Positions 3,377-20,273 are shown, counted from the stretch's first letter. The stretch: DNA of 64,000 nt from Kiritimatiellia bacterium (GCA_045537795.1 JAZSQE010000065.1:101418-165417); one strand, 5' to 3'. Notes: a model not told the origin generated them from the letters alone. A program made the numbers and translations.

Positions 3377-3925
3377 ATGGAATCCGTGTTTGCGGCGATG
3401 GCGAGCCGCCCGGACAGGCTCCTGTATCTCGACGAAAAAGGCGCCCCGCCGGAGATGATGGCCGAATTGGCGAAAAGATACGGCGTGGAGAAGCAGATTT
3501 ATTACACTTCGCCGAATTACCGGTTGATGTCGCGCTGGCAGAAGGTCGTTCCCGGCGGTCTCGGCATGGTGTGGCTCGGCACCTGGCCCAAAGACAATTC
3601 GCCCGCGTCGGTCGATAAAGCCGATAAGTTCCTCGTCGAAAGTCTGCGGAAAATGGCGGCAGACGGATGGAAAGGCGTCAGTCAGGTCCAGATCCACATC
3701 CGCACGGACCTTTCCAGACCAGACCCGTTTTGCCCGTCGAGCGATTGCATGCGCAAAGCCGTTAAACTTCTGCATTCGCGGGGTATAACCGTGCAGGCGT
3801 TCACCTGGACGGAAGGTGCCAACAAGGCGGTGCTTAAACGTATCTGGGAACTCGGATTCGACAATTTCGCGACCGACGATCCGCTCGTTCTTTTTGAATT
3901 TCTGGATGAGTTGAAGGCGAAATGA
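3377..3925 (+). CDS. GDPD-fold (glycerophosphodiester phosphodiesterase-like) protein lacking the N-terminal catalytic segment
   Basis: The C-terminus (VQAFTWTEGANKAVLKRIWELGFDNFATDDP) resembles the GDPD TIM-barrel end (WTVN...GVDGIxTD). There is no HRG/ExD catalytic N-terminus. ATG 3377 is the first start after the preceding stop. Confidence 0.4.
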   Translation: MESVFAAMASRPDRLLYLDEKGAPPEMMAELAKRYGVEKQIYYTSPNYRLMSRWQKVVPGGLGMVWLGTWPKDNSPASVDKADKFLVESLRKMAADGWKGVSQVQIHIRTDLSRPDPFCPSSDCMRKAVKLLHSRGITVQAFTWTEGANKAVLKRIWELGFDNFATDDPLVLFEFLDELKAK

Positions 3926-4043: not shown

Positions 4044-4073
4044 TTGCGGGAATCGGATGTATTTTGATATAAT
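4044..4073 (+). promoter_or_regulatory. sigma70-like promoter with extended -10 upstream of gspF operon
   Basis: TTGCGG (4044-4049), an 18 nt spacer, then TATAAT (4068-4073) preceded by TTTTGA, giving TTTGATATAAT. The site lies about 30 nt upstream of ATG 4104. Confidence 0.5.
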
Positions 4074-4103: not shown

Positions 4104-5429
4104 ATGGCGACTTTTCAATATATCGCGAAAGATTCAGCAGGCAACGAAAAACGCGGCACGGTGGAAGCCGGCGATCGCAGTTCGGCGATCGCCGCCGTCC
4201 GTGCGCAGGGGCTTCTGCCGACGGCGCTCGGCGAAGTGAAGGGCGCTCCACAATCCGCCCAGCGTCAGGCCGCAGCTCCGAAGCGAGGCAGACCTGCCCC
4301 GCCGCCGAAGAAAAAAGGCGGTGCGCTCAACAAAGAGATCAAGATCGACATCAAACTGCCCAAATGGTTGCAGGGCAAGGTCAAGACGAAGGATCTCACG
4401 CAGTTCACGCGCCAGCTGGCGACGCTCGTCAATGCGGGGCTCCCGCTCATGCGCGGTCTCGAGGTCTTGAAGCGACAGATGAAAAACCCGCAGCTGCACG
4501 ATGCTCTTTCGGGAATCTCCGAAAACATCGCGGCCGGCGGCACGTTCTCCGAGTCGCTCACGCAATACCCCAAGATTTTCGACAACCTCTACGTCAACAT
4601 GGTGAAAGCCGGCGAAGCGGGCGGTGTTCTCGAAGTCGTGCTCGGGCGTCTGGCGGAGTTCGCCGAAAAGTCGGAGAAAATCAAGAACAAGGTGAAGGGC
4701 GCGATGATTTATCCGATCGTCGTTCTCCTTGCGGCCGTGGGCATCACCGCGTTCCTGCTCGTCATGGTCATTCCCAAGTTCAAGCAGGTGTTCAACGACA
4801 TGCTCGGCGGCGCCGCGCTGCCGGCGATCACCGAGGCCGTTATCCAAGCTTCGGAATTCGTCCAGCACAACGGTCTGCAGGTCTTTCTGGGGATCGTCTC
4901 CATCGTCGTCATTTTCAAGATTGTCGGAAAGACCGAGAAGGGGGCCTACATGTTCGACGCGCTCGCGCTCAAGATGCCGGTCACGGGCACGCTCGCCCAG
5001 CGCTCGGCGGTCTCGCGCCTCACGCGCACGCTCGGCACGCTGCTTTCTTCGGGCGTACCTATTCTGCAGTCGCTCGTGATCGTGCGCGACACGACGGGCA
5101 ACCGCGTCGTCTCGAACGCCATCCAGCAGGTTCACGACTCCGTGAAAGAGGGCGAGTCCATGACGCAGCCGCTTTCGCAGTGCCCCGTCTTCCCGCCGAT
5201 GGTCGTTTCGATGGTCGAGGTCGGCGAAGAGACGGGCGCGCTCGCCGACATGCTCACGCGCATCGCCAACACGTATGACGATGAAGTCGATAACGCGGTC
5301 GCCGGCATGACGGCCGCGATCGAGCCCGCGCTCATCATCGTTCTCGCCGTCGTCGTAGGCACTATCGTCATCGCGATGTTCCTGCCCATGATCAAGATCA
5401 TCAGCTCTGTTTCGGGAGCGGGAGCGTAA
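4104..5429 (+). CDS. gspF: type II secretion / type IV pilus inner-membrane platform protein (GspF/PilC family)
   Basis: The start MATFQYIAKDSAGNEKRGTVEA...AIAAVRAQGLLP is a classic GspF N-terminus. It has two repeated cytoplasmic-domain-plus-TM modules (LATLVNAGLPL..., LGTLLSSGVPIL...). A Pro/Lys-rich insert (PKRGRPAPPPKKKGG) follows the first 50 aa. Confidence 0.85.
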   Translation: MATFQYIAKDSAGNEKRGTVEAGDRSSAIAAVRAQGLLPTALGEVKGAPQSAQRQAAAPKRGRPAPPPKKKGGALNKEIKIDIKLPKWLQGKVKTKDLTQFTRQLATLVNAGLPLMRGLEVLKRQMKNPQLHDALSGISENIAAGGTFSESLTQYPKIFDNLYVNMVKAGEAGGVLEVVLGRLAEFAEKSEKIKNKVKGAMIYPIVVLLAAVGITAFLLVMVIPKFKQVFNDMLGGAALPAITEAVIQASEFVQHNGLQVFLGIVSIVVIFKIVGKTEKGAYMFDALALKMPVTGTLAQRSAVSRLTRTLGTLLSSGVPILQSLVIVRDTTGNRVVSNAIQQVHDSVKEGESMTQPLSQCPVFPPMVVSMVEVGEETGALADMLTRIANTYDDEVDNAVAGMTAAIEPALIIVLAVVVGTIVIAMFLPMIKIISSVSGAGA

Positions 5430-5432
5430 AAC

Positions 5433-6575
5433 TTGAGAAAAGCATTCACACTCGTCGAACTTCTGATCGTCGTCCTGGTGTTCGTCACTTTGATGACGAT
5501 CGTGTTCAGACTCGGGTCGTCAGTGTCGGATTCCGAACGGCGCAGCCGCACGATCATGGCTCTGCAGAAGATAGAAAACTGTCTTTCGGGATATTATGCC
5601 GCATTCGGGAGCTATCCGCCCGTCAAACTGCACGGCAGCCGCAATTTCTATCTCAAGGTGAACGAGTACGGCATACAGCAGGTGAACGAAGATCCCGAAG
5701 AAGGCAAGCTCGTCTGGCGACGCGTCGATGCCGCCTGCCGAAGCCAGCCGGTCGCGATGAATTATCCGTATTCTTCGGGGCTGAAGGAGTACGTTAAGAC
5801 CGTTTCGGAAGGGTTGAAGTTCCTGCACAATGAATTTCCGGACAGTCGCGTGGGGAAAAATCCCGCTCTTGCCCTCGGCTTTGACGCGCTTGAGAACGTC
5901 AACCAGCTTTCGTCCAAAAGAAACGACGCGAGCTGGAGCCAAACGCAGCTTTTCCGCTTCGGGCTTATGAGCTTTCTCCTGCCGCGTTATCTCGTCATGA
6001 TGGAGCATCAGGACAGGCAGATATACGATCAATTCTCGCAATGGAGCAACAACAACGAACTGCCGTGCAGATTTGAAGACGGCATCCAGTACGAAACATG
6101 GTCGGATATGGCCAACGATCTCGCCGTGAAGGACGAACGGTGGAAGATCCAGCTTATTCCTTCGCAGGCCGTCACGGCCCGGTGGATGCCGAATCTTGAA
6201 GGTCTGCTGACGTGCGACTCGCCGAAAGTGGTTTTCTTCGGAATCAACGTGACGGGGACCGGAAGCGCGAATCTCGCGGTTACCGAGAATGCGCAACCGG
6301 TTCTTTATTCTTCCGCAGACAGTCAGCGCGGGGAAAACTCCGGCCTTTCGCAGCAGTATGCGCTTGACGGCATCACGTGCAAAGACGGCTGGCACAACGA
6401 GCTTTACTATTATTCGCGCCCGCCGTATCAAAGTTACAGGCTTTGGAGCGCGGGGCCGGACGGCAAGACCTTTCCGCCGTGGGCGACGCAGGATGAAATC
6501 GCCAAAATGAGTTCCGCCGATCAGAAGATGGTCTCCAACTGGACGGTGGACGATATAGTTCAAATGTCCAACTGA
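5433..6575 (+). CDS. large pseudopilin-like protein with prepilin-type N-terminal cleavage/methylation motif (380 aa)
   Basis: It has a TTG start. The leader MRKA|FTLVELLIVV has Glu at +5 and Ala at -1. The C-terminus carries a GspG-type loop (SAGPDGKTF...TVDDIVQM). It begins 3 nt after the gspF stop. Confidence 0.75.
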   Translation: MRKAFTLVELLIVVLVFVTLMTIVFRLGSSVSDSERRSRTIMALQKIENCLSGYYAAFGSYPPVKLHGSRNFYLKVNEYGIQQVNEDPEEGKLVWRRVDAACRSQPVAMNYPYSSGLKEYVKTVSEGLKFLHNEFPDSRVGKNPALALGFDALENVNQLSSKRNDASWSQTQLFRFGLMSFLLPRYLVMMEHQDRQIYDQFSQWSNNNELPCRFEDGIQYETWSDMANDLAVKDERWKIQLIPSQAVTARWMPNLEGLLTCDSPKVVFFGINVTGTGSANLAVTENAQPVLYSSADSQRGENSGLSQQYALDGITCKDGWHNELYYYSRPPYQSYRLWSAGPDGKTFPPWATQDEIAKMSSADQKMVSNWTVDDIVQMSN

Positions 6576-6584
6576 GGGATTCAA

Positions 6585-7208
6585 ATGAAAAGCGCAAGAG
6601 GTTTCACGCTCATAGAGATGCTCGTCGTCATCGGGATAATCGCCGTTCTCGCCGGCGCGGGGCTCGGCGCATTCAAGGGCGCTGTCGCGAGTGCGCAGAA
6701 GGCGCGGGCTACCGAGCTTGTTTCGAACGTCATGACGGCGCTCGTCTCCGTGATGCAGAAGGACGAAGCCTGGCCCAAAGCGATTATCGCGGAGGGGGCG
6801 GGCGGCGGCGAGATGACGCCTGAAGTCGGAGCTTCTCTCGCCAGACGCGGAGCGCTCAGTCTTACCTACAAAAAGACGGAAGACGAATCTACTGGCGAGA
6901 CGGTGTATCGTCTGACGGGTCTGGATCAGTGCGGAGTCGTCTCTCCATGGGCCATGGACGTTATCAGGCGCAAGGCGGTCAACGGGAACGTTTCCCTTTC
7001 GGAGAAGGTCCCCACCGGCGGCACGATACGCGATCACAGGCTTCGCTTCGCGATCGATGACGATCTCGACGGGATCGTCAAGGTCAATTACGAGAATTCG
7101 AAATCGGTCGAGATTCGGGCGTCCGCCGCGGTATGGTGCTGCGGAAGAGACGGCAAGTTCGGCACGAAGGACGATGTGAAAAGCTGGTCGAAAGGGCAGG
7201 AGCGGTGA
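6585..7208 (+). CDS. GspG-like pseudopilin (207 aa)
   Basis: The leader MKSARG|FTLIEMLVVIGIIAVLAG is canonical (G-1, F+1, E+5). The C-terminal GRDGKFGTKDDVKSW is a GspG-type loop. Confidence 0.8.
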   Translation: MKSARGFTLIEMLVVIGIIAVLAGAGLGAFKGAVASAQKARATELVSNVMTALVSVMQKDEAWPKAIIAEGAGGGEMTPEVGASLARRGALSLTYKKTEDESTGETVYRLTGLDQCGVVSPWAMDVIRRKAVNGNVSLSEKVPTGGTIRDHRLRFAIDDDLDGIVKVNYENSKSVEIRASAAVWCCGRDGKFGTKDDVKSWSKGQER

Positions 7209-7801
7209 AAAAAGGTTTTACGATAGTCGAGTTGATGGCGGTCTGCGCGATACTCGCCGTTCTCGTTTCGATAGTCGTCGTGGCGGCGAGCGGAGCGATA
7301 AAAAACTCAAGAGACAAGCGCGCTACGGCGATGGCGAGCGCTCTTCAGCAGGGGATAAACGCCTACTACGCGCAGGAGGGCAGGTGGCCGCAGGCGATGG
7401 AGTCTAAAATCGGGTCTATCGACGATGATTCGTACACGTTCACCCAGCACGAGACGGACGAGATATTCAGAGAGGTCGTCGGCAAGGGCTTCGGCAAAGG
7501 CAGCGGTTCGCGCTCCGCGCTCGTCGACGCGTCGGCGCTTTTCGTCGCCAACGCCTCCGAACTGAAAAATAACGGCAAGGGCTGCAATGACAATCATTCC
7601 GACCGTACAGAGTCTGATTATTGCGGCAATCAAAACTGCGCCAGAGGTGTCGATTTCATCGAAGCCGTGAAGCGCGGCGGAAAGCACAAAATCCCGTTCG
7701 CGCAGATGGCGTTCGGCTATCAGGGCAGAGTCAACGGCAGATTCCGCCGCTTTTGGATAAAATACAACCCGAAGACAGATTCGGTGAGCGTAAGCAAATG
7801 A
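7205..7801 (+). CDS. pseudopilin-like protein (198 aa)
   Basis: GTG 7205 overlaps the previous stop (GTGA). The leader is VKKG|FTIVELMAVCAILAVL. The upstream part of ORF 7133 overlaps the preceding gene and is rejected. Confidence 0.75.
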   Translation: MKKGFTIVELMAVCAILAVLVSIVVVAASGAIKNSRDKRATAMASALQQGINAYYAQEGRWPQAMESKIGSIDDDSYTFTQHETDEIFREVVGKGFGKGSGSRSALVDASALFVANASELKNNGKGCNDNHSDRTESDYCGNQNCARGVDFIEAVKRGGKHKIPFAQMAFGYQGRVNGRFRRFWIKYNPKTDSVSVSK

Positions 7802-7808
7802 ATTTCGC

Positions 7809-8618
7809 ATGATGAAAAAAGCGTTCACGTTGATAGAGCTTCTGATGGTCGTGGCAATCATGGCCTTTCTCGGCGTCGCTTCCGCAGGCGGCTATGCGGC
7901 GCTTACGCGCGGCATAAAGGAACGCGGCGCAGTGGCGGCCGCGTCGGCGTTTCTGCGCGCGGCCAAAGAACGCGCTCTTATAGACCGGGTGCCGACGGCG
8001 GTGTTCTGCTACAACAAACTCCTCAAAGACTCCTCCGGGTCGGATGATTCGCATCAGGTGGTGGTAGGCGAAATGGTCGCCGTGCGCCGGCAGGGGCGGA
8101 TATCGAGCATACAGGGCGATTTCCTCTTTGACGAGTTCGCCGATCTCAATCTTACGTACGATGTCGCCGAAGACGAGTCGGAGCTTCGCGACGGCTCGAG
8201 TCTGCGGCTTTACAAATTCGCCGGCGGCAATATGAGCGACATGCGCTATTCTGTCGTCGCTTCGACCGTATGGATGGAAACGGGGCGCACGTTGGATTTC
8301 TTTTCGCGCCCCAGCGAAATTCTGCCCATGTGCGCTTTTTACAACCAGGGCAAGAGCGAGCGTGAAGCGACATGGTCGGTAGGCAGCGCGTACGCGCTGG
8401 AGTTCGGCGAACTGCAGTTGCCGCACGGTTTCGTTTTCAGCGGGCAGATACCTTCGCGCGTCGGAGAGATTTCGGGCTTGAAGGTGCTTTGTTTCGACCC
8501 CGAGAACGAATCGGATAAAACGGTCGAAATGATATCGACCAGACCAGATTCCGGCGGCAGGGCCGTGAAGTTCCGCGACATCGGCAAGGCGACTTCGGAC
8601 GAAAAGGAGGGCGTATGA
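7809..8618 (+). CDS. GspH/FimT-like minor pseudopilin (269 aa)
   Basis: The leader is MMKKA|FTLIELLMVVAIMAFL. It is followed by AAASAFLRAAKERALIDRVPTAVF, resembling the GspH/FimT helix-to-strand transition. Confidence 0.65.
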   Translation: MMKKAFTLIELLMVVAIMAFLGVASAGGYAALTRGIKERGAVAAASAFLRAAKERALIDRVPTAVFCYNKLLKDSSGSDDSHQVVVGEMVAVRRQGRISSIQGDFLFDEFADLNLTYDVAEDESELRDGSSLRLYKFAGGNMSDMRYSVVASTVWMETGRTLDFFSRPSEILPMCAFYNQGKSEREATWSVGSAYALEFGELQLPHGFVFSGQIPSRVGEISGLKVLCFDPENESDKTVEMISTRPDSGGRAVKFRDIGKATSDEKEGV

Positions 8619-9196
8619 GAAAAGGTTTTACGCTCGTCGAAGTCAATCTCGCGATCTTCATCATGGCCGTCGGCGTCCTTGCGATGTGCGGTCTTAACGC
8701 TCTGGGGTACCGCGAAAACCGCCAAAGCGTCGAGGATGTCGCGTCCGTGGCGTTCGCCGACACGTATCTCGCGCCTCTCGTGCAGGGTCTGTCGGCGCTT
8801 GACATGAAATGGAGCGACTGGTGCGCCATCGGCAATCCGCCCTCGCGCGCGGAGATGCGCTCGCGCGGCGTCGCGGACGGTCTTCTGCCTCGGGAAGGTT
8901 GGATGGCGTATGTCGACAAAGTGAAACTCTCCGGCGAAGACGAATACGGCTGCCGTGTCAGGACCGGCGCTCGCGCTCGCGCCGATTCGGCGTTCGGAGA
9001 CGTGATTTCAAAGGTGCCCGCCGCCTACAGAGGTTCGCGCGCGGCGATACCGGGCGATTACGAATACGCGCTCGTCGTGACGCGGCGCGGCGCCGTCATA
9101 CAGCTCGCGTTCAGATGCGCGAGACGGCGTGATTCTCTCATGTCTCAGCCGACGGTCGTCGCCGAAGTGCACTTTCAGGGAGATCCTAACCAATGA
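8615..9196 (+). CDS. GspI-like minor pseudopilin (193 aa)
   Basis: There is an ATGA overlap with the upstream gene. The leader MRKG|FTLVEVNLAIFIMAVGVLAM follows the GspI-style EV..A pattern. Confidence 0.6.
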   Translation: MRKGFTLVEVNLAIFIMAVGVLAMCGLNALGYRENRQSVEDVASVAFADTYLAPLVQGLSALDMKWSDWCAIGNPPSRAEMRSRGVADGLLPREGWMAYVDKVKLSGEDEYGCRVRTGARARADSAFGDVISKVPAAYRGSRAAIPGDYEYALVVTRRGAVIQLAFRCARRRDSLMSQPTVVAEVHFQGDPNQ

Positions 9197-9702
9197 CACG
9201 CAAAGGGTTCACCCTCCTCGAAATGATGGTCGCGAGCCTTCTTCTCGGAATGCTCGTGACGACTCTTACCATGCTTTTCAATTCCTCTTCGGTCGCGTGG
9301 CGTACGGGCACCGCCGGAGTGAGCGAACTTAAAGACGTGCGCTCGTCGCTCGGTGTTTTTCACGATATCCAAGACGATCTTCTCCCGGGGCTGGGCGACA
9401 AAGGCTCGGGGAACGGCGCGGGACAAGGAGACAGCCGCTCTCTCAATTACCGTACGGTTTCGGTGTGGGATCCTTCGCAGGACAACAGACTGCGCACCGA
9501 TCGCGCGTACAAACAGATAAATTGGCAGGGCGCACCCAATATCAGCATAAACGACGCGGTGAAAGGAGCGTCGAAGTCGGTGGGCAGAGCCGGCTCGGGT
9601 ATCGGTTCGGGGCTCTTTACGGTAGGCGTGCGCAGCCGCGGCCCTGACGGGATACCCGATACGGAAGATGACATAACGACATGGCCAGATCAGATCGATT
9701 GA
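9193..9702 (+). CDS. GspJ-like minor pseudopilin (169 aa)
   Basis: There is an ATGA overlap with the upstream gene. The leader is MTRKG|FTLLEMMVASLLLGMLV. The C-terminus RGPDGIPDTEDDITTW is a GspG-type loop. Confidence 0.6.
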   Translation: MTRKGFTLLEMMVASLLLGMLVTTLTMLFNSSSVAWRTGTAGVSELKDVRSSLGVFHDIQDDLLPGLGDKGSGNGAGQGDSRSLNYRTVSVWDPSQDNRLRTDRAYKQINWQGAPNISINDAVKGASKSVGRAGSGIGSGLFTVGVRSRGPDGIPDTEDDITTWPDQID

Positions 9703-9703
9703 C

Positions 9704-10174
9704 ATGAAAAAAGCTTTTACATTGGTCGAGCTTCTTGTTGTGGTATCGATGATCGCGGTACTCAGCGCATCGATGATGTCCGCCGTCGGGCGGGCAAGGA
9801 TGCGCTCGCGCGTCGCGAAGGCCACGCAGGAAATAAAAGAACTCACAAACGCCATTCTCGCGTATGAGCAGTACGCCCCGAACCGTTCGCTCGACGGCGA
9901 AGTTACCGGATGGACAGACTGCACGGAAGGCGCTCTTTCGATGGTTCTCGGCGGCAAGAGCGGCGACAACGGCGAGAGGATACCCGTTCTGTTCAACGCA
10001 AATATCACGCGCGGTGAATTTCGCGATCCGTGGGGCAGGGCGTACCAGCTTAAAATAGAAAAAACCGATACTCTTCAGGGCGGCGGCACGGATGAAGATC
10101 GCGGCGTCAGTTTCACGACGGCGCCGGCGCTCCCGAATTACTTCAGACTTACGGACAAGGAGCGTGGACTATGA
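9704..10174 (+). CDS. gspG: GspG-family pseudopilin (156 aa), candidate major subunit
   Basis: The leader is MKKA|FTLVELLVVVSMIAVLSA. The RARMRSRVAKATQEIKEL helix and the RDPWGRAYQL motif (DPWGxxY) are typical of GspG. Confidence 0.7.
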   Translation: MKKAFTLVELLVVVSMIAVLSASMMSAVGRARMRSRVAKATQEIKELTNAILAYEQYAPNRSLDGEVTGWTDCTEGALSMVLGGKSGDNGERIPVLFNANITRGEFRDPWGRAYQLKIEKTDTLQGGGTDEDRGVSFTTAPALPNYFRLTDKERGL

Positions 10175-13100
10175 TTGTTGAAACGAAAAAAGGCAGCGCG
10201 CTTCTGATCGTTCTGGGAATGGTCGCTTTCATGATCGTAAGCGCCGTCAGCTTTTCGATATTCATGCGCCAGAGCCGCGTTCCGTCGAGCCATCTAAGGC
10301 GTGAGGTTTCTTCAAGATATCTTCTGAAAGCCGCGCTCGCCAACGCGATAGCGCGTATCGACGGGCAGTTCGCCTCCCAGCGCAAAATCGGCAATTCCGA
10401 TCTGGGGGACTCCACCGGTTCGGGCTATACCGAGGGCGTGTTTGACAGCACCTATCCCGGGTTAAACAACGAAAGCGATATAAGACGCAACGGAGATTAT
10501 TGGTCGAGCGGCAGGGTGTTCATGCCGTTTGGAGCGCTTAAGTACGGCAGAGAAACCGGCAATGAGCAGGATCCGTCGGATTATGACGACGATGTCGTCA
10601 CCGAAAACCAAACGGTTTCGACTCTGACTCTCGAAGCTCTCGCGTATCTGCCGCCGGCGATAATAAACGAGGTCAGAATCGATTCGCGCCGCACGAGGAC
10701 GGCGCGCTGGAGCAACCTTTCGTATGAGCTCGGGCGCTATGCGTTCACGGCCGTCAACGTCTCGGACTGCTTCGACATCAACAGATTGTACGCTTCGATG
10801 CGGCGCACTTCCGCGCCCGGCGAGCGCATCAACATGAGCGGGCTTTTCGAGTCGCCTGCCGCGGCGGAGAAGTTCGATTCGATTCTCGAGAGGTCGGGGG
10901 ATGTGCCTTTCGTTTCGCTGGCGGACTTCAACATCGTCGCGCAAGGGACGGAATTTTCCCCGTTCAGCCGTTATATCGGGTCGCAGCAGTCTTATATTTA
11001 CAGGATGAGCGACGCGAATTCGCTCTCCAACGCCCTGTTCGTCACCGATACGTGGTTCCCCGAGAACGATACCGCTTCGAGAGATGCGTCGGAGGGGAAT
11101 CAGAACGCGGGGAATCAGCAGAATCAGCAGAATGCCGTGCAGAAATTCGATCTTGCCGCCGGCGGGGACAATCAGCCGTTCAAGGATTTCTCCGAAAAGA
11201 AAACGCTTCTCGGGTTTGCCAGCGAATCTCCGCCGCCGATAAGAACCAAACTGCAGGAGTTCATCGGGTTCGTCGGCACGGCGTGTCTTTACGACTATCT
11301 CGACGGCGACAGCGTGCCGCTTTCGCTTTGCATTCCTTCGGCGGAAGCCGTGCCGATGGTTTCTTCGCTCTGCATAGCAAACCAGTTCAATCTTAAGATA
11401 GAGACCGAAGAGCGCAACGGGGTGGAAATCGTGACGCCGGCGACTGAAGATTCCCCCGAGGTGAAGTTTGTGCGCAACGCGAAAAAGTATAAACTGACGG
11501 GCATTGCCGATTCGGGCTCCATAATGGTCGCGGGCACGGTTCTTTATCCTTTTCTCAGGATGAAGGACAAAGGATATCCCGAGAATTTCAAACTCGAGTC
11601 TCTCGTGAAAATATGGTGGGCGCCGAAGGACGTGAAATCAAGGCTCGCTTCGGACGCCGTTCTTTATCCGTCGACGAAGGAGGCGTGGGCGTCGTCCGTG
11701 AAAGACGGCGTAGTTACGGTCTATTCGAGTAACGATGTGAAAATCGAGGGGTTTTCCGTCAAGGATATGCCGCAATCTTCCCAGGAGGCGGTGTTCAGAA
11801 TCATGGGCAACGTGACGCTGCCGGCTCTTGACATGCCGCTTATGTGGTATGTCGAAGAATGGGAGCAGAATGGCGATGATGAACAGCGTCTGAACGAGAA
11901 GAAGTATTATTCGCTGAATGATTGCCATAACGAGAACTCTTTCAGGCCGTATGCGGCGCAGGGGCAGGCCGACGGATGGTGGAAGCCCGAAGATCCGAAG
12001 ATGACGCTTTCGTTCCCGACGTTCGAGGGGGGCAAGTGGTCGTCGCGCGATCCGGCGCCGCACAACGCCACGGCGCTGCCGGAAACGGAATACGTCATGC
12101 ATGTCGCGCTTTGGGTCCGCGTCATCGACGGCGACGGCAATACGGTCGATATGGCCCCCGCGCGGCCGTCCGACGATTCTCTCTGGATCGCCCAGGGCGG
12201 TGGCGATGAGATGAATATTTTCGAAAAAATCGCGGGCGGAGGATCTCCGATTCTTGAGTTCCGCGGCACCGTGCCCGTAAAGTACACGAAGGAAACCTGT
12301 GACGGTTTCGGCGGCGGGGTCGCGGAGCCGATGGAATGGAATTCTCTTTTCTGCTGCGACCCCAAGTTCAACTGGGCTCCGGAAAACTGGTTCAAGGCGA
12401 AGGAGAATTTCGAGGGGTCGCTGGAAGGCTCCTGGGTCTCCAAAGCGGAAAGCGTCGTGGGCACCGGTAATCGCGACAAAGACGTGTTTATGGCGGTTTC
12501 AGACCAGGAATATCTCCAATCCATCGGCGAGCTCGGGTTTATCCCCGATCTCGGGTGGCGCATCGGCAATAAACTGGTCGATTACGAAGATCGCTTCACG
12601 GGGGCGTCCATGTCTGCGCGAAGCGGAGCGGGCGACTGTGTATGCAACGAATATTTCTGGAGGACGTATTCGCCCATTGAAGACCCGGTATACGATTTCG
12701 ACGGCGAAATGGAGGTCATATCGGGGCAGAACGATTTCAGAGTCAATCCGTTCACCGGCGATCTTCGCGTGATGATGGCGGCGATCGCCAATACTCCGTA
12801 CGATTATTACGTCGCTTCGACGAATCAGGATTCTGAGATCAATCGTTTCGCGAGCATGGAGCTTAAGGATTCGCTCAAACACTCTTTCTGCAAAGATTGT
12901 CCGAGCGCCTATTGGGACGATGATCTCGTGAGGGATATCGCGCAGGAAATCAGCAGACGTTTCCGCGAAAAGGGCAGAGAGAAGCCGGGCGCCGACTGGA
13001 AAGAGATATTCGACGAAATGCCATGGTTCGACGGCAAGAAGGGCGCGGAGCAGCTTACCTTTCTCGAAGTGGAACTTGACAAGCCTCTGTACGGCGTAGA

Positions 13101-13401
13101 CAGGAAGTTTCTTTACTCGTACTGGCGCGAATGTTTTCAGAACAGGCAGCAGCTCTTTCTCGTTTTCATAAGAGCCGAGCCTCTTTCTGTCGGAGGGGCG
13201 AGCGGCGACGCCGTCGGCAACGCCCAGCTCGGCGCGAGAGGAGTGGCTCTCGTGTGGCGCGATCCGGCCGTTCCGTCCGGCGGCGGCAACCGTCCCAAGA
13301 GAACGGAGTTGCTGTCGCCTCAGAAGTGGCAGACTCTGAGCGCCGAGAATTCGGTAAAGCCGCACCGCACGAGAGTCCTTTTCTACCATCAGTTCGATTG
13401 A
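10171..13401 (+). CDS. giant GspK-like minor pseudopilin / putative tip protein (1076 aa)
   Basis: There is an ATGA overlap with gspG. The N-terminus KKGSALLIVLGMVAFMIVSAVSF matches the GspK signature (RGxALlxVL, with no F+1 or E+5). The position after the G/H/I/J-like genes fits GspK. About 1000 further residues belong to no family I recognise, including a Q/N-rich tract (NQNAGNQQNQQN). Confidence 0.6.
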   Translation: MIVETKKGSALLIVLGMVAFMIVSAVSFSIFMRQSRVPSSHLRREVSSRYLLKAALANAIARIDGQFASQRKIGNSDLGDSTGSGYTEGVFDSTYPGLNNESDIRRNGDYWSSGRVFMPFGALKYGRETGNEQDPSDYDDDVVTENQTVSTLTLEALAYLPPAIINEVRIDSRRTRTARWSNLSYELGRYAFTAVNVSDCFDINRLYASMRRTSAPGERINMSGLFESPAAAEKFDSILERSGDVPFVSLADFNIVAQGTEFSPFSRYIGSQQSYIYRMSDANSLSNALFVTDTWFPENDTASRDASEGNQNAGNQQNQQNAVQKFDLAAGGDNQPFKDFSEKKTLLGFASESPPPIRTKLQEFIGFVGTACLYDYLDGDSVPLSLCIPSAEAVPMVSSLCIANQFNLKIETEERNGVEIVTPATEDSPEVKFVRNAKKYKLTGIADSGSIMVAGTVLYPFLRMKDKGYPENFKLESLVKIWWAPKDVKSRLASDAVLYPSTKEAWASSVKDGVVTVYSSNDVKIEGFSVKDMPQSSQEAVFRIMGNVTLPALDMPLMWYVEEWEQNGDDEQRLNEKKYYSLNDCHNENSFRPYAAQGQADGWWKPEDPKMTLSFPTFEGGKWSSRDPAPHNATALPETEYVMHVALWVRVIDGDGNTVDMAPARPSDDSLWIAQGGGDEMNIFEKIAGGGSPILEFRGTVPVKYTKETCDGFGGGVAEPMEWNSLFCCDPKFNWAPENWFKAKENFEGSLEGSWVSKAESVVGTGNRDKDVFMAVSDQEYLQSIGELGFIPDLGWRIGNKLVDYEDRFTGASMSARSGAGDCVCNEYFWRTYSPIEDPVYDFDGEMEVISGQNDFRVNPFTGDLRVMMAAIANTPYDYYVASTNQDSEINRFASMELKDSLKHSFCKDCPSAYWDDDLVRDIAQEISRRFREKGREKPGADWKEIFDEMPWFDGKKGAEQLTFLEVELDKPLYGVDRKFLYSYWRECFQNRQQLFLVFIRAEPLSVGGASGDAVGNAQLGARGVALVWRDPAVPSGGGNRPKRTELLSPQKWQTLSAENSVKPHRTRVLFYHQFD

Positions 13402-13413
13402 TCCGTTTTCCGC

Positions 13414-15459
13414 ATGAAATACGATCTTGTTGTCATTACCGCCGCCAACAAGGCGCAGGCAAGAGGTTACAGGGCGCAGCTCAAGGGGAGAAAAGGGTAT
13501 CTTGTTCTTCCCGATCCGGGTGAAAGGCGCGTCGGGTCTCTCGGCGCCACCGTCAACGCCCTCAGGCGCATGAAATCGCTTCACGCGAAATCCCGCGTAC
13601 TCGTCTGTCATTCCGGCGGCGACGCCAGACGCACGGTCGCATACGCGGCTCTCGGAAAGGCGTTCGTGCCGATGCCCGATTCGAGGCCGCTTCTCGATCA
13701 TGTCGTCGAGGCGATGGAAAAACTGCCAGCGGCGCCCGGAGTGACGGTCTGCTGCGGGGATGTCGTCCCGCGACTTGATTACGGCTCGGTCAGGTTCGCC
13801 CGCCGCGGCGTTACCGGAGTTGCATATCCCGACGGCCCGTGGCAGGCGCAGCGCCACGGCGTTTATGTGGCCGAAAGCCGCGATTCTTCCGATCCCGTCA
13901 CGGTGCAGGGCTTTCTTCAGAAACCGCAGGTGAAACGCGGCCGGCACCTTATCGACACCGGGATAATGCACATCGATTGGCTAACCGCCGAAAAAATGCG
14001 ATCGCTCCCCGTGGCAGGCGACATTTATGAGGAATTTCCCAAGATGCTTCTCGGCGGGTTTGCGCCGTTCTCGGTTTCGATCGTCCCCGAATGTGAATTT
14101 TTCCATGTCGGCTCGAGCCGCGAACTCCTGAAACTTCTCGGCCGTTCGGGCAGATTGATCGATTCTTGCGCGGCCGCGATCGGAAAGCTCGGAGGGGAGA
14201 ACATCGTCGTGAACGTCCCCGCTTCGTACGGCCGCGTCGATCTCGCCAAAGGCGAGTGTCTAACGTGTCTGCCGCTGGGCAAAAGCGATTGGTATCCCCT
14301 CAGGTATCATATCGACGACAACTTCAAGACGGACGGGCTCTGGGAAAAGCACGATCTCGCAGAAAAGATGAAATCGGTCGATCACTCGAGGCTCGCGGGG
14401 CTTCGCCGCCGCGAAGTCAAGGTTACGGCGCCCGTGAGAATCGATTTTTCCGGCGGCTGGAGCGATACGCCTCCGATTTGCAACGCCGAAGGCGGCGCCG
14501 TTCTTGCGGCGGCCGTCACGCTCGACGGCAAGAGACCCATCGAAGTGACGGTGCGCGAGCGTGCCGACAAGTTCGTGAAAGTCGTTTCGAAAGATCTCGG
14601 CAAGCGGCGTCTTCTGAAAAGCGCCGCCGAAATCGCCGATCACCACGATCCCCATGACTGGTGCGCGCTCGTAAAATCGGCGTTGACGGTTACCGGGTTC
14701 AAGTTCGGTTCGCGAGGGCTCGACATAATCATTTCAGCGGATTTGCCGAAGGGTTCCGGCATGGGGACCTCTTCCATTCTCGGCGCGGCCACGATAGCGG
14801 CTCTTCTCCGCCGCGCGGATGTCGACGAGATAGGCTCTCTCACGCTCGCGCTCGAGCGCGAGATGCGCACCGGCGGCGGCTGGGAAGATCAGTTCGCGGG
14901 GCTCACGCCCGGTATGAAGCTCATGACTTCAAGGCCCGGTGCAGAACAGCGCATCGTTTCACGAGGACTTTCCCTCGACGCGGGAAGTTTCGCTGAAAAG
15001 CTGAAATCGCGCTCGCTTCTCTATTTCACCGGACAGAAGCGCATGGCCCGCAACGTCCTCAGGCGCGTCATCTCGTTTTACGCCGAGAACCCCCACGATT
15101 TCGCGCATATCCTCGTGGATGCCCTCAAGAAGGGCGCGCATGACGCCGCCGCCGCCGTCGGACGCGGCGACATCGAGGAGTTTGCGCGCTGCATCAACGC
15201 GTATTGGCGCGACAAGAAACTTCTCGACGCGGGTTCGACGAACGAGCGTGTCGACGAAATCATATCTCTCGTTAAGCCTTTCGCGTCGGCCGTGACGCTC
15301 GCGGGCGCGGGCGGCGGCGGGTTTATGTACATTTTGGCGAAAAGTCCCGCGGCGGCGAAGAGGATACGCTCCATGCTGGAGAAAAATCCGCCGTCGAAAC
15401 ATTCGCGCTTCTACGCTTTCGATATAGACGACAAGGGGCTTGTCTTCGAAGGGTGCTGA
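13414..15459 (+). CDS. fkp: Fkp-like bifunctional L-fucokinase / fucose-1-phosphate guanylyltransferase (short form, 681 aa)
   Basis: The N-terminus DLVVITAANKAQARGYRAQL matches the fucokinase/pyrophosphorylase N-domain signature. The C-terminal half has the GHMP kinase motif LPKGSGMGTSSILGAA. It starts 12 nt after the GspK-like gene. Confidence 0.7.
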   Translation: MKYDLVVITAANKAQARGYRAQLKGRKGYLVLPDPGERRVGSLGATVNALRRMKSLHAKSRVLVCHSGGDARRTVAYAALGKAFVPMPDSRPLLDHVVEAMEKLPAAPGVTVCCGDVVPRLDYGSVRFARRGVTGVAYPDGPWQAQRHGVYVAESRDSSDPVTVQGFLQKPQVKRGRHLIDTGIMHIDWLTAEKMRSLPVAGDIYEEFPKMLLGGFAPFSVSIVPECEFFHVGSSRELLKLLGRSGRLIDSCAAAIGKLGGENIVVNVPASYGRVDLAKGECLTCLPLGKSDWYPLRYHIDDNFKTDGLWEKHDLAEKMKSVDHSRLAGLRRREVKVTAPVRIDFSGGWSDTPPICNAEGGAVLAAAVTLDGKRPIEVTVRERADKFVKVVSKDLGKRRLLKSAAEIADHHDPHDWCALVKSALTVTGFKFGSRGLDIIISADLPKGSGMGTSSILGAATIAALLRRADVDEIGSLTLALEREMRTGGGWEDQFAGLTPGMKLMTSRPGAEQRIVSRGLSLDAGSFAEKLKSRSLLYFTGQKRMARNVLRRVISFYAENPHDFAHILVDALKKGAHDAAAAVGRGDIEEFARCINAYWRDKKLLDAGSTNERVDEIISLVKPFASAVTLAGAGGGGFMYILAKSPAAAKRIRSMLEKNPPSKHSRFYAFDIDDKGLVFEGC

Positions 15460-17332: not shown

Positions 17333-17425
17333 TAATGGAGCGCCGGCGTAGAATACGTCCGGGAACAAATGGTTGCGCCGCATCGCAGGAATCTTTTTTC
17401 GGGTCTATCGCGGGAACGTCATTTT

Positions 17426-17434
17426 TGGTATAAT
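17426..17434 (+). promoter_or_regulatory. TGGTATAAT extended -10 box upstream of greA
   Basis: The sequence is tttTGGTATAATctcc. The ATG at 17466 is preceded by the RBS AGGGAG. Confidence 0.45.
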
Positions 17435-17465
17435 CTCCCGAACTGAATTTTCAAAGGGAGACAAA

Positions 17466-19532: not shown

Positions 19533-20273
19533 ATGAAAAAAGAAGTGAAGAAGGCCGTTAAAAAAGCACCCGCCAAGAAGGCTACTGTCAAAAAGGTTGA
19601 AACCGCGAAGAAGGCGGCTCCCGCGAAGAAGGCGGCCGCGGCCAAAAAAGCCGTAGCCAAAAAACCGGCGAAAAGCCGCGTCGAGAAGAAGAGCGTCGAG
19701 ACCGCGGCGGAGCAGAAGTCCGCACGGCGCTCGCCGATCATAACAAAAACTCCCCAACAGGAATACGAGCCCGTTGACACCGCCAAGGCCGTCGCGTTCG
19801 CGATGTCCATCGCCGAGGAGATGAAACGCAGCGCGCAGCAAAAGGATATCGACAGGCAGCAGGACGAGATAAAACTTTCTCGCCGCCCCACGTCCCGTAC
19901 GCAAAAGGGCGTATCCGAGAAATTCCCCGTCGCCGACCTCAAGGAGTTCAAGAAACGGCTTCTCGCCGCCCGCGACAAGGCCGTAAAAGGCGTCGACGCG
20001 ATGAGGGCGACAGGGTTCAACGAGTCAGAAGATCACGAGGCCGACGGCGGTGACGGCACCAATCAGACGCTCCGTCTTCAGGCTCTCGGCCAGATGGGCA
20101 ATATCAACCGGACGATCCAGCAGATCGAAGAGGCTCTTCACCGTATCGACGACGGCACCTACGGCGTCTGCACCGTCTGCGGGCAGCTTATCCGCAAGCC
20201 CCGGCTCATGAACCAGCCGTTCGTTCTCACGTGCATGGAGTGCCAGAGCGAAATGGAGCGCGGCCTCAAGTGA
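19533..20273 (+). CDS. DksA/TraR C4 zinc-finger protein with Lys/Ala-rich histone-H1-like N-terminal tail
   Basis: The first ~60 aa are KKAxKK repeats (MKKEVKKAVKKAPAKKATVKKVETAKKAAPAKKAAAAKKAVAKKPAK). The C-terminus has CTVCGQ...CMEC, the four-Cys DksA/TraR finger. The RBS is AGGAGGG. Confidence 0.75.
   Translation: MKKEVKKAVKKAPAKKATVKKVETAKKAAPAKKAAAAKKAVAKKPAKSRVEKKSVETAAEQKSARRSPIITKTPQQEYEPVDTAKAVAFAMSIAEEMKRSAQQKDIDRQQDEIKLSRRPTSRTQKGVSEKFPVADLKEFKKRLLAARDKAVKGVDAMRATGFNESEDHEADGGDGTNQTLRLQALGQMGNINRTIQQIEEALHRIDDGTYGVCTVCGQLIRKPRLMNQPFVLTCMECQSEMERGLK

What the first reader, a model, noticed from the sequence alone, without database searches (positions are those of the whole stretch)
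4104..15459. Orphan platform-plus-pseudopilin operon: GspF, seven prepilin-leader proteins, a giant GspK-like protein and Fkp, with no ATPase, secretin or peptidase nearby
Ten genes run head to tail with 0-12 nt gaps or ATGA/GTGA overlaps at 7205, 8615, 9193 and 10171. They start from a single extended -10 promoter at 4044-4073.

The set contains a GspF/PilC platform protein. It also has seven proteins with prepilin leaders (KA|FTLVE, RG|FTLIE, KG|FTIVE, KA|FTLIE, KG|FTLVE, KG|FTLLE, KA|FTLVE) and a GspK-type protein.

The order F-X-G'-G''-H-I-J-G-K differs from the canonical C-D-E-F-G-H-I-J-K-L-M. There are three extra pseudopilins, and most members are 1.3-3 times the normal size. No GspE/PilB ATPase, GspD secretin, GspC/L/M or prepilin peptidase is in the window.

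This looks like a specialised pseudopilus or fibre module rather than a standard T2SS. It could be a surface fibre for glycan capture or adhesion. It sits next to glycan-degrading genes (GH78, DUF4838).
Basis: partly seen in the sequence, partly recalled or inferred. Interest (0 to 1): 0.7.

Follow-up and report, generated by a model that had tools for sequence, protein, structure and literature searches.

The report
Kiritimatiellae platform-plus-eight-pilin operon
This is a real operon, conserved across gut and rumen Kiritimatiellae, that encodes the membrane platform, seven pilin-like proteins and a giant cap-like protein of a type II secretion / type IV pilus-type machine; it is an unusual, uncharacterised variant of a known kind of system, not a one-off orphan.

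Summary
Ten co-oriented genes lie at 4104-15459 with 1-12 nt gaps or 4-nt overlaps. They are GspF, seven proteins with class III (prepilin) leaders, a 1076-aa protein with a GspK-like N-terminus, and an Fkp-like enzyme. The window holds no ATPase, secretin or prepilin peptidase.

The locus is not peculiar to this genome. The block p1-p7 plus the giant protein is strictly collinear in about 70 Kiritimatiellae MAG loci, once per genome. GspF sits directly upstream in 32 of 57 informative loci. Fkp and the glycan-degrading neighbours are not conserved with it.

In relatives, a GspE ATPase, secretins and a PilMNOP-like set are encoded elsewhere, dispersed among housekeeping genes.

The canonical F-G-H-I-J-K order is in fact preserved. 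p1 is a GspG-type pilin with a roughly 240-aa insertion. p2 and p3 are inserted extras. p4, p5 and p6 look H-, I- and J-like. p7 is a normal-sized GspG-like pilin.

The giant protein and p1 give confident AlphaFold models with no significant PDB neighbour.

Best reading: this is the platform-plus-pseudopilus module of a dispersed T2SS-like machine. A surface fibre with a giant tip cannot be excluded. Verdict: new variant of a known kind, moderate interest.

The parts
4044..4073 (+). Promoter-like string: TTGCGG, 15 nt, TGaTATAAT (extended -10), 30 nt upstream of gspF
   Evidence: Read directly from the sequence. Not returned by the consensus scan because the -35 matches only 3 of 6 positions. 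Function is untested.
4104..5429 (+). GspF/PilC-family inner-membrane platform protein, 441 aa
   Evidence: Pfam T2SSF twice, E 1.6e-68. The top NCBIfam hit is TIGR02120 GspF at 404 bits against a cutoff of 424. Identity to relatives is 68-91% where the other cassette genes are 24-82% identical.
5433..6575 (+). p1: 380-aa pilin at the canonical GspG position, GspG-type at both ends with a roughly 240-aa mainly helical insertion
   Evidence: N-terminus matches TIGR01710 GspG at E 3.4e-7. Residues 303-346 match Pfam T2SSG at 20.4 bits against a gathering score of 21. Many homologues carry a precomputed PF08334. AF2 gives pLDDT 91 and pTM 0.85. Foldseek finds no significant PDB neighbour, only short non-significant hits to EpsG.
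6585..7208 (+). p2: extra prepilin-leader protein, 207 aa
   Evidence: N_methyl E 2.8e-8. It is a distinct orthologous family, collinear in all relatives at 35-82% identity.
7205..7801 (+). p3: extra prepilin-leader protein, 198 aa, GTG start overlapping the p2 stop
   Evidence: N_methyl E 1.8e-5. Homologues start at the same KKGFTIVE position. Collinear in all relatives.
7809..8618 (+). p4: GspH/FimU-like minor pilin, 269 aa
   Evidence: N_methyl hit. hhalign against the GspH of a canonical cluster (L090) gives 94% probability over 62 columns. Below the cutoffs of every curated H model.
8615..9196 (+). p5: GspI/PilV-like minor pilin, 193 aa
   Evidence: TIGR02523 PilV at E 1.3e-6, N-terminus only, 29 bits against a cutoff of 52. 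It is the best window match of L090 GspI. hhalign 88% over 26 columns.
9193..9702 (+). p6: GspJ/PilW-like minor pilin, 169 aa
   Evidence: N_methyl hit. It is the best window match of L090 GspJ. hhalign 85% over 60 columns.
9704..10174 (+). p7: normal-sized GspG-like pilin, 156 aa, candidate major subunit
   Evidence: TIGR01710 aligns residues 3-118 to model positions 1-103 at E 1e-6, 28.8 bits against a cutoff of 88.85. hhalign against the canonical GspG of L090 gives 97% over 95 columns, including the DPWG-x-PY motif. Its profile has the highest mean column identity of the pilin alignments.
10171..13401 (+). Giant GspK/PilX-like protein, 1076 aa: conserved G|SALLIVLG N-terminus without Phe1 or Glu5, then a large globular body of unmatched fold
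   Evidence: No Pfam family. The only NCBIfam hit is GspK, residues 7-66, E 0.014. hhalign matches the N-terminus only: 52% to E. coli GspK and 43% to L090 GspK. The family has more than 430 homologues and 1108 representative clusters. The 150 best representatives are mostly about 1000-1190 aa, with one of 772 aa. AF2 gives pLDDT 83.6 and pTM 0.83. No PDB match by sequence or by fold.
13414..15459 (+). Fkp-like fucokinase / fucose-1-P guanylyltransferase, 681 aa: probably co-transcribed here but not part of the conserved cassette
   Evidence: Pfam Fucose_pyrophosphorylase plus GHMP kinase N and C domains. PRK13412 scores 352 bits against a cutoff of 721. It follows the giant gene only in L066 among about 70 loci. 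A convergent M3 peptidase gene starts 10 nt after its stop.

Best explanation
**What it is.** The locus is the platform-plus-filament operon of a type IV filament (T2SS-like) machine that is a conserved, single-copy feature of gut and rumen Kiritimatiellae.

**Proposed mechanism (inferred).**
- GspF is the inner-membrane platform.
- The seven class III-leader proteins are cleaved by a prepilin peptidase encoded elsewhere. They are then extracted from the membrane and polymerised on GspF.
- A GspE-type ATPase encoded elsewhere supplies the power.
- p4, p5, p6 and the giant protein form the H-I-J-K-type priming and tip complex. The 118-kDa protein is an oversized cap, the only member without Glu5, as in GspK.
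- p7 and/or p1 (GspG-type) build the shaft. p2 and p3 are additional low-abundance subunits.
- The filament works under or through a secretin encoded elsewhere.

**Most likely role (inferred).** A short pseudopilus that drives secretion of folded exoproteins in these polysaccharide-degrading bacteria.

**What is shown.** Gene content, leaders, family memberships at superfamily level, conservation, collinearity, and dispersal of the partner genes.

**What is inferred.** Processing, assembly, the tip role of the giant protein, which ATPase and secretin are the partners, and the secretion function.

Fkp is an unrelated neighbour.
For: - **Type IV filament hallmarks.** Two T2SSF domains in GspF. 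Seven N_methyl leaders with Glu5. One GspK-like leader lacking Glu5.
- **T2SS flavour.**
  - The top-ranked NCBIfam model for the platform protein is GspF, 404 bits against a cutoff of 424.
  - p7 aligns to a canonical GspG through the DPWG motif at 97%.
  - p1 and its homologues hit Pfam T2SSG.
  - The only curated hit of the giant protein is GspK.
  - Each of H, I, J and K from a canonical cluster (L090) finds its best window match in the gene at the same relative position.
- **Function under selection.**
  - One-to-one orthology and strict gene order hold in about 70 species-level genomes, once per genome.
  - GspF is 68-91% identical across them.
  - The giant-protein family has more than 400 clusters at 50% identity that match strongly.
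- **Partner genes exist but are dispersed.**
  - GspE (T2SSE plus MshEN) lies 5.5 kb downstream in L062 and is a singleton in L084-L088.
  - Secretins occur in L073 and L086.
  - A PilM-like gene followed by three small genes and a secretin occurs in L086.
- **Published context.** A T2SS is reported for the cultured Kiritimatiella glycovorans, whose exported sulfatases it was suggested to serve (PMC5148204).
Against: - No curated model for GspG, H, I, J or K is passed. Similarity of p4-p6 and the giant protein to their namesakes is confined to the N-terminal helix.
- The confident model of the giant protein shows no GspK-like match.
- GspF here is only 33% identical to the GspF of canonical E-F-G-H-I-J-K-L-M...D clusters (L090, L095). 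Yet the GspE of those clusters is 70-72% identical to the clade's singleton GspE, and their MetRS is 64-70% identical to a clade member's. The cassette may therefore belong to a different machine from that GspE.
- The clade seems to hold a second type IV filament system. L034 has a second T2SSF-family gene. L089 has a 432-aa T2SSE ATPase.
- The L086 gene set is split like PilM/N/O/P/Q of type IVa pili rather than like GspL/M/C.
- An approximately 118-kDa cap is large for a periplasmic pseudopilus.
Confidence: 0.55

Rival explanations
1. It is a type IV pilus-like surface fibre, essentially the first reader's idea. The cassette would build an extracellular filament whose giant protein is a tip adhesin, functionally like PilY1 or ComZ. 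The enlarged, modular pilins p1-p4 would decorate it, for attachment to particles, mucus or glycans.
For: - The giant tip-type protein is comparable in size to tip adhesins of type IV pili (recalled knowledge, not tested here).
- Several pilins are oversized and one, p1, is clearly modular.
- A PilM/N/O/P/Q-like split gene set with a secretin exists in a relative, L086.
- The GspF score is nearly the same against PilC models, 399 and 393 bits.
- The giant protein evolves fastest in the cassette, at 29-44% identity, as expected for an exposed part.
Against: - Neither confident model shows a lectin, CBM, vWA, beta-propeller or PilY1-like fold.
- No PilT-type retraction ATPase was identified in this work.
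- The candidate shaft subunits are GspG-type, not PilA-type.
- The glycan-degrading neighbours that prompted the idea are not conserved with the cassette.
Confidence: 0.28
2. It is a separate, lineage-specific type IV filament machine with another role, such as DNA uptake or export of one dedicated cargo. It would run alongside a canonical T2SS encoded elsewhere in the same genomes.
For: - The discordance between GspF at 33% and GspE at 70-72% against canonical clusters that are probably from Kiritimatiellota.
- Two non-orthologous secretins, 23% identical, in L073 and L086.
- Extra platform and ATPase genes in L034 and L089.
Against: - No canonical F-G-H-I-J-K set was seen in any gut-clade locus, although only about 20 kb per genome was visible.
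- In gut-clade contigs the GspE orthologue is a singleton with no platform or pilin genes beside it. This fits one dispersed system better than two complete ones.
Confidence: 0.13
3. It is a decaying or non-functional orphan remnant of a lost secretion system.
For: No partner genes lie in the 64-kb window.
Against: - All ten reading frames are intact, with coding-type GC3.
- Translational coupling is preserved.
- Order and orthology are kept in about 70 genomes. GspF is 68-91% identical and there are hundreds of full-length giant-protein homologues.
Confidence: 0.02

Closest known systems
Canonical type II secretion system gspF-G-H-I-J-K segment (E. coli K-12 gspC-O; canonical E-F-G-H-I-J-K-L-M...D clusters on metagenome contigs L090 and L095)
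   Same: - A GspF platform is followed by a GspG-type pilin, then H-, I- and J-like minor pilins and a Glu5-less K-type protein, in the same relative order.
- The genes are tightly coupled.
- p7 shares the GspG DPWG motif.
   Different: - There are seven pilins instead of five, counting K.
- p1 carries a roughly 240-aa insertion.
- The K-type protein is 3.3 times larger, with no detectable GspK body.
- E, D, C/L/M and O are not in the cluster.
- No curated G, H, I, J or K model is passed.
- GspF is only about 31-33% identical to canonical GspF.
Type IVa pilus minor-pilin operon fimU-pilV-pilW-pilX-pilY1-pilE of Pseudomonas (recalled knowledge)
   Same: A run of minor pilins ends in or beside a very large tip-associated protein plus a PilA-like pilin. 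In a relative, the dispersed gene set includes a PilM/N/O/P/Q-like split.
   Different: - The giant protein here has a pilin-type N-terminal hydrophobic segment, unlike PilY1 as I recall it.
- It shows no PilY1, vWA or beta-propeller signal.
- The PilV model is matched only at the N-terminus and below its cutoff.
ComZ of Thermus thermophilus and modular pilins of Streptococcus sanguinis (recalled; PMC8179133 and PMC5131608 seen)
   Same: The concept is the same: a pilin-type N-terminus carrying a large grafted module, which gives a filament or its tip a new property.
   Different: There is no sequence or fold similarity to any solved pilin module. The modules here are larger and of unknown activity.
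Verru_Chthon cassette proteins A-D (NCBIfam TIGR02596, TIGR02598, TIGR02599, TIGR02600)
   Same: It is an uncharacterised cassette of prepilin-leader proteins in the wider PVC group of bacteria, which I recall as including one very large member. p2, p3, p4 and p7 weakly hit protein D. p5 hits protein B. p1, p6 and p7 hit protein C.
   Different: All hits are N-terminal only and far below the cutoffs. The giant protein does not hit protein A at all. So this is not that cassette.

Membership tests
Type IV filament superfamily (T2SS, type IV pili, Com and relatives) | A polytopic GspF/PilC platform protein with two T2SSF domains | tested here: met
   Pfam T2SSF, two stretches, E 1.6e-68.
Type IV filament superfamily (T2SS, type IV pili, Com and relatives) | Subunits with a class III signal peptide: short basic leader, Gly or Ala at -1, Phe at +1, Glu at +5, hydrophobic alpha-1 helix | tested here: met
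   Seven of seven proteins. N_methyl or TIGR02532 hits. Profiles match the alpha-1 helix of solved pilins and of GspG. The motif is unique to these ORFs in the window. Actual cleavage was not tested.
Type IV filament superfamily (T2SS, type IV pili, Com and relatives) | A GspE/PilB-family ATPase and a prepilin peptidase in the genome | not testable with these tools
   Neither is in the 64-kb window. The rest of this genome could not be fetched. Relatives have a GspE elsewhere. No A24 peptidase was seen in any fetched locus.
Type II secretion system (Gsp) | GspF equivalog | tested here: inconclusive
   TIGR02120 is the top hit, at 404.3 bits against a cutoff of 424. PilC models score 399 and 393 bits against cutoffs of 700.
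Type II secretion system (Gsp) | Major pseudopilin GspG (TIGR01710 / Pfam T2SSG) | tested here: inconclusive
   p7 scores 28.8 bits against a cutoff of 88.85, but the alignment spans model positions 1-103 of 134. hhalign to a canonical GspG gives 97%, including DPWG. p1 scores 20.4 bits on T2SSG against a gathering score of 21, and its homologues carry PF08334.
Type II secretion system (Gsp) | Minor pseudopilins GspH, GspI and GspJ | tested here: not met
   All curated models are below their cutoffs and match the N-terminus only. Position-matched best hits and hhalign at 85-94% are confined to the N-terminal helix region.
Type II secretion system (Gsp) | GspK (T2SSK fold: pilin fold with an inserted alpha-domain) | tested here: not met
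   No Pfam T2SSK hit. NF037980 scores 15 bits against a cutoff of 130, N-terminus only. A confident AF2 model has no GspK match in the PDB. Only the Glu5-less G|SALLIVL leader is shared.
Type II secretion system (Gsp) | GspD secretin, GspE and GspC/L/M encoded with the pseudopilins | tested here: not met
   They are absent from the window and from the 10-kb flanks of about 70 related loci. The exceptions are one GspE (L062) and one secretin (L073), about what chance proximity would give.
Type IVa pilus minor-pilin / PilY1 set | A PilY1-type tip protein and PilV/W/X equivalogs | tested here: not met
   The giant protein has no PilY1 Pfam family and no fold match. PilV TIGR02523 scores 29 bits against a cutoff of 52.2 for p5.
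Verru_Chthon cassette (TIGR02596, TIGR02598, TIGR02599, TIGR02600) | Matches above cutoff to cassette proteins A-D | tested here: not met
   Proteins B, C and D score 12-24 bits against cutoffs of 51-256. Protein A has no hit.
Bifunctional Fkp (fucokinase / GDP-fucose pyrophosphorylase) | An N-terminal fucose pyrophosphorylase domain plus a C-terminal GHMP kinase | tested here: inconclusive
   Both Pfam domain sets pass their gathering scores. PRK13412 scores 352 bits against a cutoff of 721, and the protein is 681 aa against a model of 974 positions.

The most novel reading that the evidence does not exclude
Gut and rumen Kiritimatiellae may have replaced or supplemented the canonical T2SS pseudopilus with a distinct, lineage-specific type IV filament. 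It would be built from seven different pilins, including a modular 380-aa GspG derivative. It would be capped by a 118-kDa GspK-derived protein whose confidently predicted fold has no solved relative. Its platform protein would be one that diverged sharply from canonical GspF and then froze at 68-91% identity. On this reading it is a new subclass of type IV filament machine whose giant cap carries a new activity, such as cargo selection, gating of the secretin, or substrate binding.
Probability: 0.3. Interest if true: 0.7.

Novelty: new variant of a known kind. Interest (0 to 1): 0.5.

Why it matters
Kiritimatiellae are abundant polysaccharide degraders in rumen and gut. How they export their many exoenzymes is unstudied.

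This operon is the clade's conserved platform-and-filament module. It departs from textbook T2SS in three ways:
- the number of subunits;
- subunit size, including a modular GspG;
- a cap protein more than three times the normal size, with no structural relative.

It also shows a machine whose parts are fully dispersed in the genome. That dispersal defeats cluster-based secretion-system annotation.

If the giant cap and extra pilins prove to have specific roles, they would bear on an open question in the field: what minor pseudopilins and the tip complex actually do during secretion. They would also give two confident new folds to test.

If it is only a divergent T2SS, the practical value is better annotation of hundreds of 'hypothetical' 1000-aa proteins in gut metagenomes.

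Tried and rejected
- **Fetching the window's own contig.** Exact look-ups of the window's GspF and giant protein found no record. The cluster look-up gave no name or accession. The rest of this genome, a 165,662-bp contig, could not be examined for gspE, gspD or pilD.
- **The window's genome among GTDB representatives.** The best match is 44% identity, so it is not among the species representatives that were returned.
- **Profile search of the giant protein against PDB sequences.** Only noise.
- **Foldseek of both AF2 models against the PDB.** Nothing at E <= 0.001. Weak CBM9, GH2 and Ig-like hits for the giant protein (E about 0.1-0.6, TM below 0.06) were rejected as noise.
- **Profiles of p1, p4 and p7 against the PDB.** Only the alpha-1 helix matches, so H, I and J identity cannot be established by sequence.
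- **Representative-library search.** It listed only the 150 best, near-full-length hits. The weak tail that might bridge to ordinary GspK was not visible.
- **Literature.** Nothing on Kiritimatiellae pseudopilins or this giant protein. The K. glycovorans paper mentions a T2SS only in a supplement that is not held.
- **Downstream genes as hidden partners.** In L001 these are a DUF1559-like prepilin protein and an LptD-like outer-membrane protein beside LpxK, by my reading of their sequences. They are not GspL/M or a secretin.
- **Linking L086's PilM-like/secretin operon, or L090's L, M and D genes, to the cassette by orthology.** No usable similarity.
- **Fkp as a pilin glycosylation partner.** Rejected, because Fkp is present in only one of about 70 related loci.

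Full report
**1. What is in the sequence**

The region 4104-15459 carries ten co-oriented ORFs with coding-type GC3.
- gaps of 3, 9, 7, 1 and 12 nt;
- 4-nt overlaps at 7205 (GTGA), 8615, 9193 and 10171 (ATGA).

Pfam and NCBIfam give the following:

| Gene | Result |
|---|---|
| Gene 1 | Two T2SSF domains. GspF equivalog is the top hit at 404 bits (cutoff 424). |
| Genes 2-8 | Prepilin N-methylation motif. All seven have Phe at +1 and Glu at +5. |
| Gene 9 (1076 aa) | No Pfam family. |
| Gene 10 | Fucose-pyrophosphorylase plus GHMP-kinase domains. |

A regex for the leader motif finds exactly seven hits in all six frames of the 64-kb window. All seven lie at these N-termini.

The promoter-like string at 4044-4073 exists. 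It has a perfect TATAAT with an upstream TG, but its -35 matches only 3 of 6 positions, so the consensus scan does not report it.

The window holds no ATPase, secretin, GspC/L/M or prepilin peptidase. This rests on Pfam scans of the credible ORFs and on tblastn with E. coli and Kiritimatiellae references. Upstream lie the end of a GH78, a DUF4838 protein and a 182-aa ORF with no Pfam match. Downstream lies a convergent M3 peptidase.

**2. It is a conserved operon of a bacterial class, not a one-off**

The giant protein has more than 430 full-length homologues of about 1000-1130 aa. The few that carry a name are from Kiritimatiellae MAGs. A profile search of 1.84 billion representative proteins gives 1108 clusters at E <= 0.001 and 424 at E <= 1e-30.

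A scan of GTDB species representatives returned 72 loci. Nearly all are from gut, rumen or faecal MAGs labelled Kiritimatiellae, Verrucomicrobia or Lentisphaeraceae. Some are obviously mislabelled bins.

tblastn with the ten window proteins shows that p1-p2-p3-p4-p5-p6-p7-giant is strictly collinear in every locus with enough DNA. Orthology is one-to-one, and the block occurs once per genome.

Identity to the window is 24-82% for the pilins, 29-44% for the giant protein and 68-91% for GspF.

GspF is directly upstream in 32 of 57 loci with enough upstream sequence. The variants are:
- some loci have MnmE-GspF-pilins (L078, L043);
- some have MnmE followed directly by the pilins (L001, L024, L025, L027 and L028);
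- some contigs have MnmE-GspF followed by unrelated genes (L009, L010).

This points to an ancestral F-linked operon that was split more than once.

Fkp follows the giant gene only in the closest relative, L066. The flanks are otherwise unrelated housekeeping genes. Fkp and the glycan-degrading neighbours are therefore not part of the system. Many relatives instead have an extra prepilin protein of about 310-355 aa after the giant gene.

**3. Assigning the parts**

- **p7 (156 aa)** is the only normal-sized pilin. The GspG equivalog aligns over residues 3-118, though below its cutoff. Its family profile aligns to a canonical GspG at 97% probability through the DPWG-x-PY motif.
- **p1 (380 aa)** sits at the canonical G position, right after F. 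It is GspG-like at its N-terminus (TIGR01710, E 3.4e-7) and at residues 303-346 (Pfam T2SSG, 20.4 bits against 21). Many of its homologues carry PF08334.
  - Its AlphaFold model is confident (pLDDT 91, pTM 0.85).
  - It shows a long alpha-1 helix, a mainly helical insertion of about 240 residues, and a C-terminal beta region.
  - Foldseek finds nothing significant in the PDB. The only pilin-type hits are short, non-significant matches to the major pseudopilin EpsG.
- **p4, p5 and p6** resemble GspH/FimU, GspI/PilV and GspJ/PilW. The resemblance covers only the N-terminal helix region. However, each of H, I, J and K from a canonical cluster (L090) finds its best window match in the gene at the same relative position.
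- **The giant protein** has a nearly invariant G|SALLIVLG N-terminus with no Phe1 or Glu5, which is the GspK/PilX pattern.
  - GspK is its only curated hit (E 0.014).
  - hhalign to E. coli and L090 GspK gives 52% and 43%, N-terminus only.
  - Its model is confident (pLDDT 83.6, pTM 0.83). It has an alpha-1-like helix, helical and beta-sandwich regions, and highly conserved C-terminal strands.
  - Neither PDB sequences nor Foldseek give any significant match, and no GspK or PilY1 appears among the listed hits.

The layout is thus F-G*(p1)-x(p2)-x(p3)-H(p4)-I(p5)-J(p6)-G'(p7)-K*. That is the canonical order with three insertions and two greatly enlarged members.

**4. Where the rest of the machine is**

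The window's own genome could not be retrieved. The answer therefore comes from relatives.

- Among the roughly 70 cassette loci, one has a GspE-type ATPase (T2SSE plus MshEN, 565 aa) 5.5 kb downstream among housekeeping genes (L062).
- One has a secretin 2.5 kb upstream of gspF, separated from it by coaE and rho (L073). That frequency is about what chance proximity would give.
- A metagenome scan with that GspE found orthologues at 79-85% identity that are singletons (L084-L088).
- In L086, a PilM-like gene, three small genes (two with a single predicted membrane helix by my reading) and a secretin form an operon on the other strand 5 kb away.

So partner genes exist in the clade, but they are dispersed.

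**5. An unresolved discordance**

Two contigs (L090, L095) carry a canonical cluster. It runs E-F-G-H-I-J-K, then an L-like and an M-like gene, then D, with normal-sized pseudopilins and a 408-aa GspK.

| Gene compared | Identity |
|---|---|
| GspE of L090/L095 against the gut clade's GspE | 70-72% |
| MetRS of L095 against the MetRS of a cassette-bearing genome (L034) | 64-70% |
| GspF of L090/L095 against the cassette's GspF | 33% |

The MetRS figure suggests these contigs are probably Kiritimatiellota. A GspF identity of 33% is no closer than E. coli GspF.

There are two possible explanations:
- the cassette's F and pilins diverged sharply at the base of the gut clade and then became highly constrained;
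- the cassette belongs to a different machine from that GspE.

Other observations warn that more than one type IV filament system may be present:
- L034 has a second T2SSF-family gene next to FHA and PEGA proteins;
- L089 has a 432-aa T2SSE ATPase beside an F-like gene;
- the secretins of L073 and L086 are only 23% identical.

**6. Interpretation**

*Firmly supported.* This is a functional, conserved platform-plus-filament operon of the type IV filament superfamily.

*Most likely (about 0.55).* It is the F-plus-pseudopilus module of a dispersed T2SS-like secretion machine.
- p4-p6 and the giant protein would form the tip complex.
- p7 and/or p1 would form the shaft.

The GspG-type signatures, the GspF and GspK top hits and the preserved F-G-H-I-J-K order all point this way. 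So does the lifestyle of these exoenzyme-rich bacteria; a T2SS is reported for Kiritimatiella glycovorans (PMC5148204).

It draws some support from the subunit sizes, the modular p1 and the PilMNOPQ-like set. It loses the context argument, and the predicted folds give it no support.

*Other rivals.* A separate lineage-specific machine is possible (about 0.13). A dead remnant is excluded by the conservation.

**7. Comparison, novelty and score**

The system works like a T2SS/T4P pseudopilin operon and belongs to the type IV filament superfamily. It fails the curated tests for GspH, GspI, GspJ, GspK, PilV, PilY1 and the Verru_Chthon cassette. It is borderline for GspF and GspG.

No paper found in the library describes it.

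I rate it a new variant of a known kind, with interest 0.5. It is a widespread, uncharacterised elaboration with two confident folds that have no solved relative, and it is an instructive case of a fully dispersed secretion machine.

Noticed in passing
window 4104-5429 compared with loci L008-L082: GspF is 68-91% identical across species whose giant proteins are only 29-44% identical and whose pilins are 24-82% identical. Yet it is only about 31-33% identical to E. coli GspF and to the GspF of canonical clusters that are probably from Kiritimatiellota. The pattern suggests a sharp early divergence followed by very strong constraint.
   Followed up: partly
window 5433, 7809 and 9704 (p1, p4, p7 leaders): Three of the seven leaders have Ala rather than the classical Gly at -1 of the prepilin cleavage site. 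In the p4 and p7 families the Ala is the consensus across relatives. I recall classical prepilin peptidases strongly preferring Gly.
   Followed up: partly
L090 9968-21656 and L095 10001-21604 (metagenome contigs): These contigs carry a canonical cluster with normal-sized pseudopilins: E-F-G-H-I-J-K, then a GspL-like gene (weak PilN hit), a GspM/PilO-like gene and D. Their GspE is 70-72% identical to the gut clade's singleton GspE.
   Followed up: partly
L086 15253-20243 (minus strand): A PilM-like gene (398 aa) is followed by genes of 216, 199 and 167 aa and a 737-aa secretin with STN, Secretin_N and Secretin domains. The whole looks like pilMNOPQ. It is followed by a 1083-aa BspA-type LRR protein and lies 5 kb from the GspE orthologue.
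   Followed up: partly
L034 14222-18011; L089 894-4587: There are signs of a second type IV filament-like system in the clade. L034 has a 389-aa protein with one T2SSF domain next to MetRS, followed by FHA-domain and PEGA-domain proteins. L089 has a 432-aa T2SSE-family ATPase near a distant GspF-like gene.
   Followed up: no
L001 13394-14506, L004 13277-14221, L007 13448-14410, L008 18942-19853: Many relatives have an additional prepilin-leader protein of about 300-355 aa just after the giant gene. In L001 it looks DUF1559-like by eye. The window has the Fkp-like gene at that position instead.
   Followed up: partly
window 17373-19481 and 19533-20273: A 702-aa protein has GreA/GreB domains only in its last 165 or so residues, so it carries a very long N-terminal extension. 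It is followed by a 246-aa DksA/TraR zinc-finger protein with a Lys/Ala-rich, histone-H1-like N-terminal half.
   Followed up: no
window 13414-15459: The Fkp-like protein is 681 aa against a 974-position NCBIfam model for bifunctional Fkp, and it scores half the cutoff. It seems to be a shortened form lacking part of the middle region.
   Followed up: no
L014, L017, L019, L021, L034, L035, L056, L061, L069 (record titles): Contigs that carry this Kiritimatiellae-type cassette are deposited under names such as Barnesiella intestinihominis, Faecalibacterium, Gemmiger, Alistipes onderdonkii and Methanomethylophilaceae archaeon. These 'cleanbin' assemblies appear to be taxonomically mislabelled.
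   Followed up: no
L088 4823-5779 compared with window 33064-34020: In L088 an SBF-family (bile acid:sodium symporter) gene 67% identical to the window's lies immediately upstream of the GspE orthologue. In the window the same gene is followed by a DeoR regulator and sugar-catabolism genes, so that synteny is not kept.
   Followed up: no
window 3377-3925: A 182-aa ORF with coding-type composition and no Pfam match lies between the DUF4838 gene and gspF. It reduces the promoter-bearing intergenic gap to 178 bp.
   Followed up: partly
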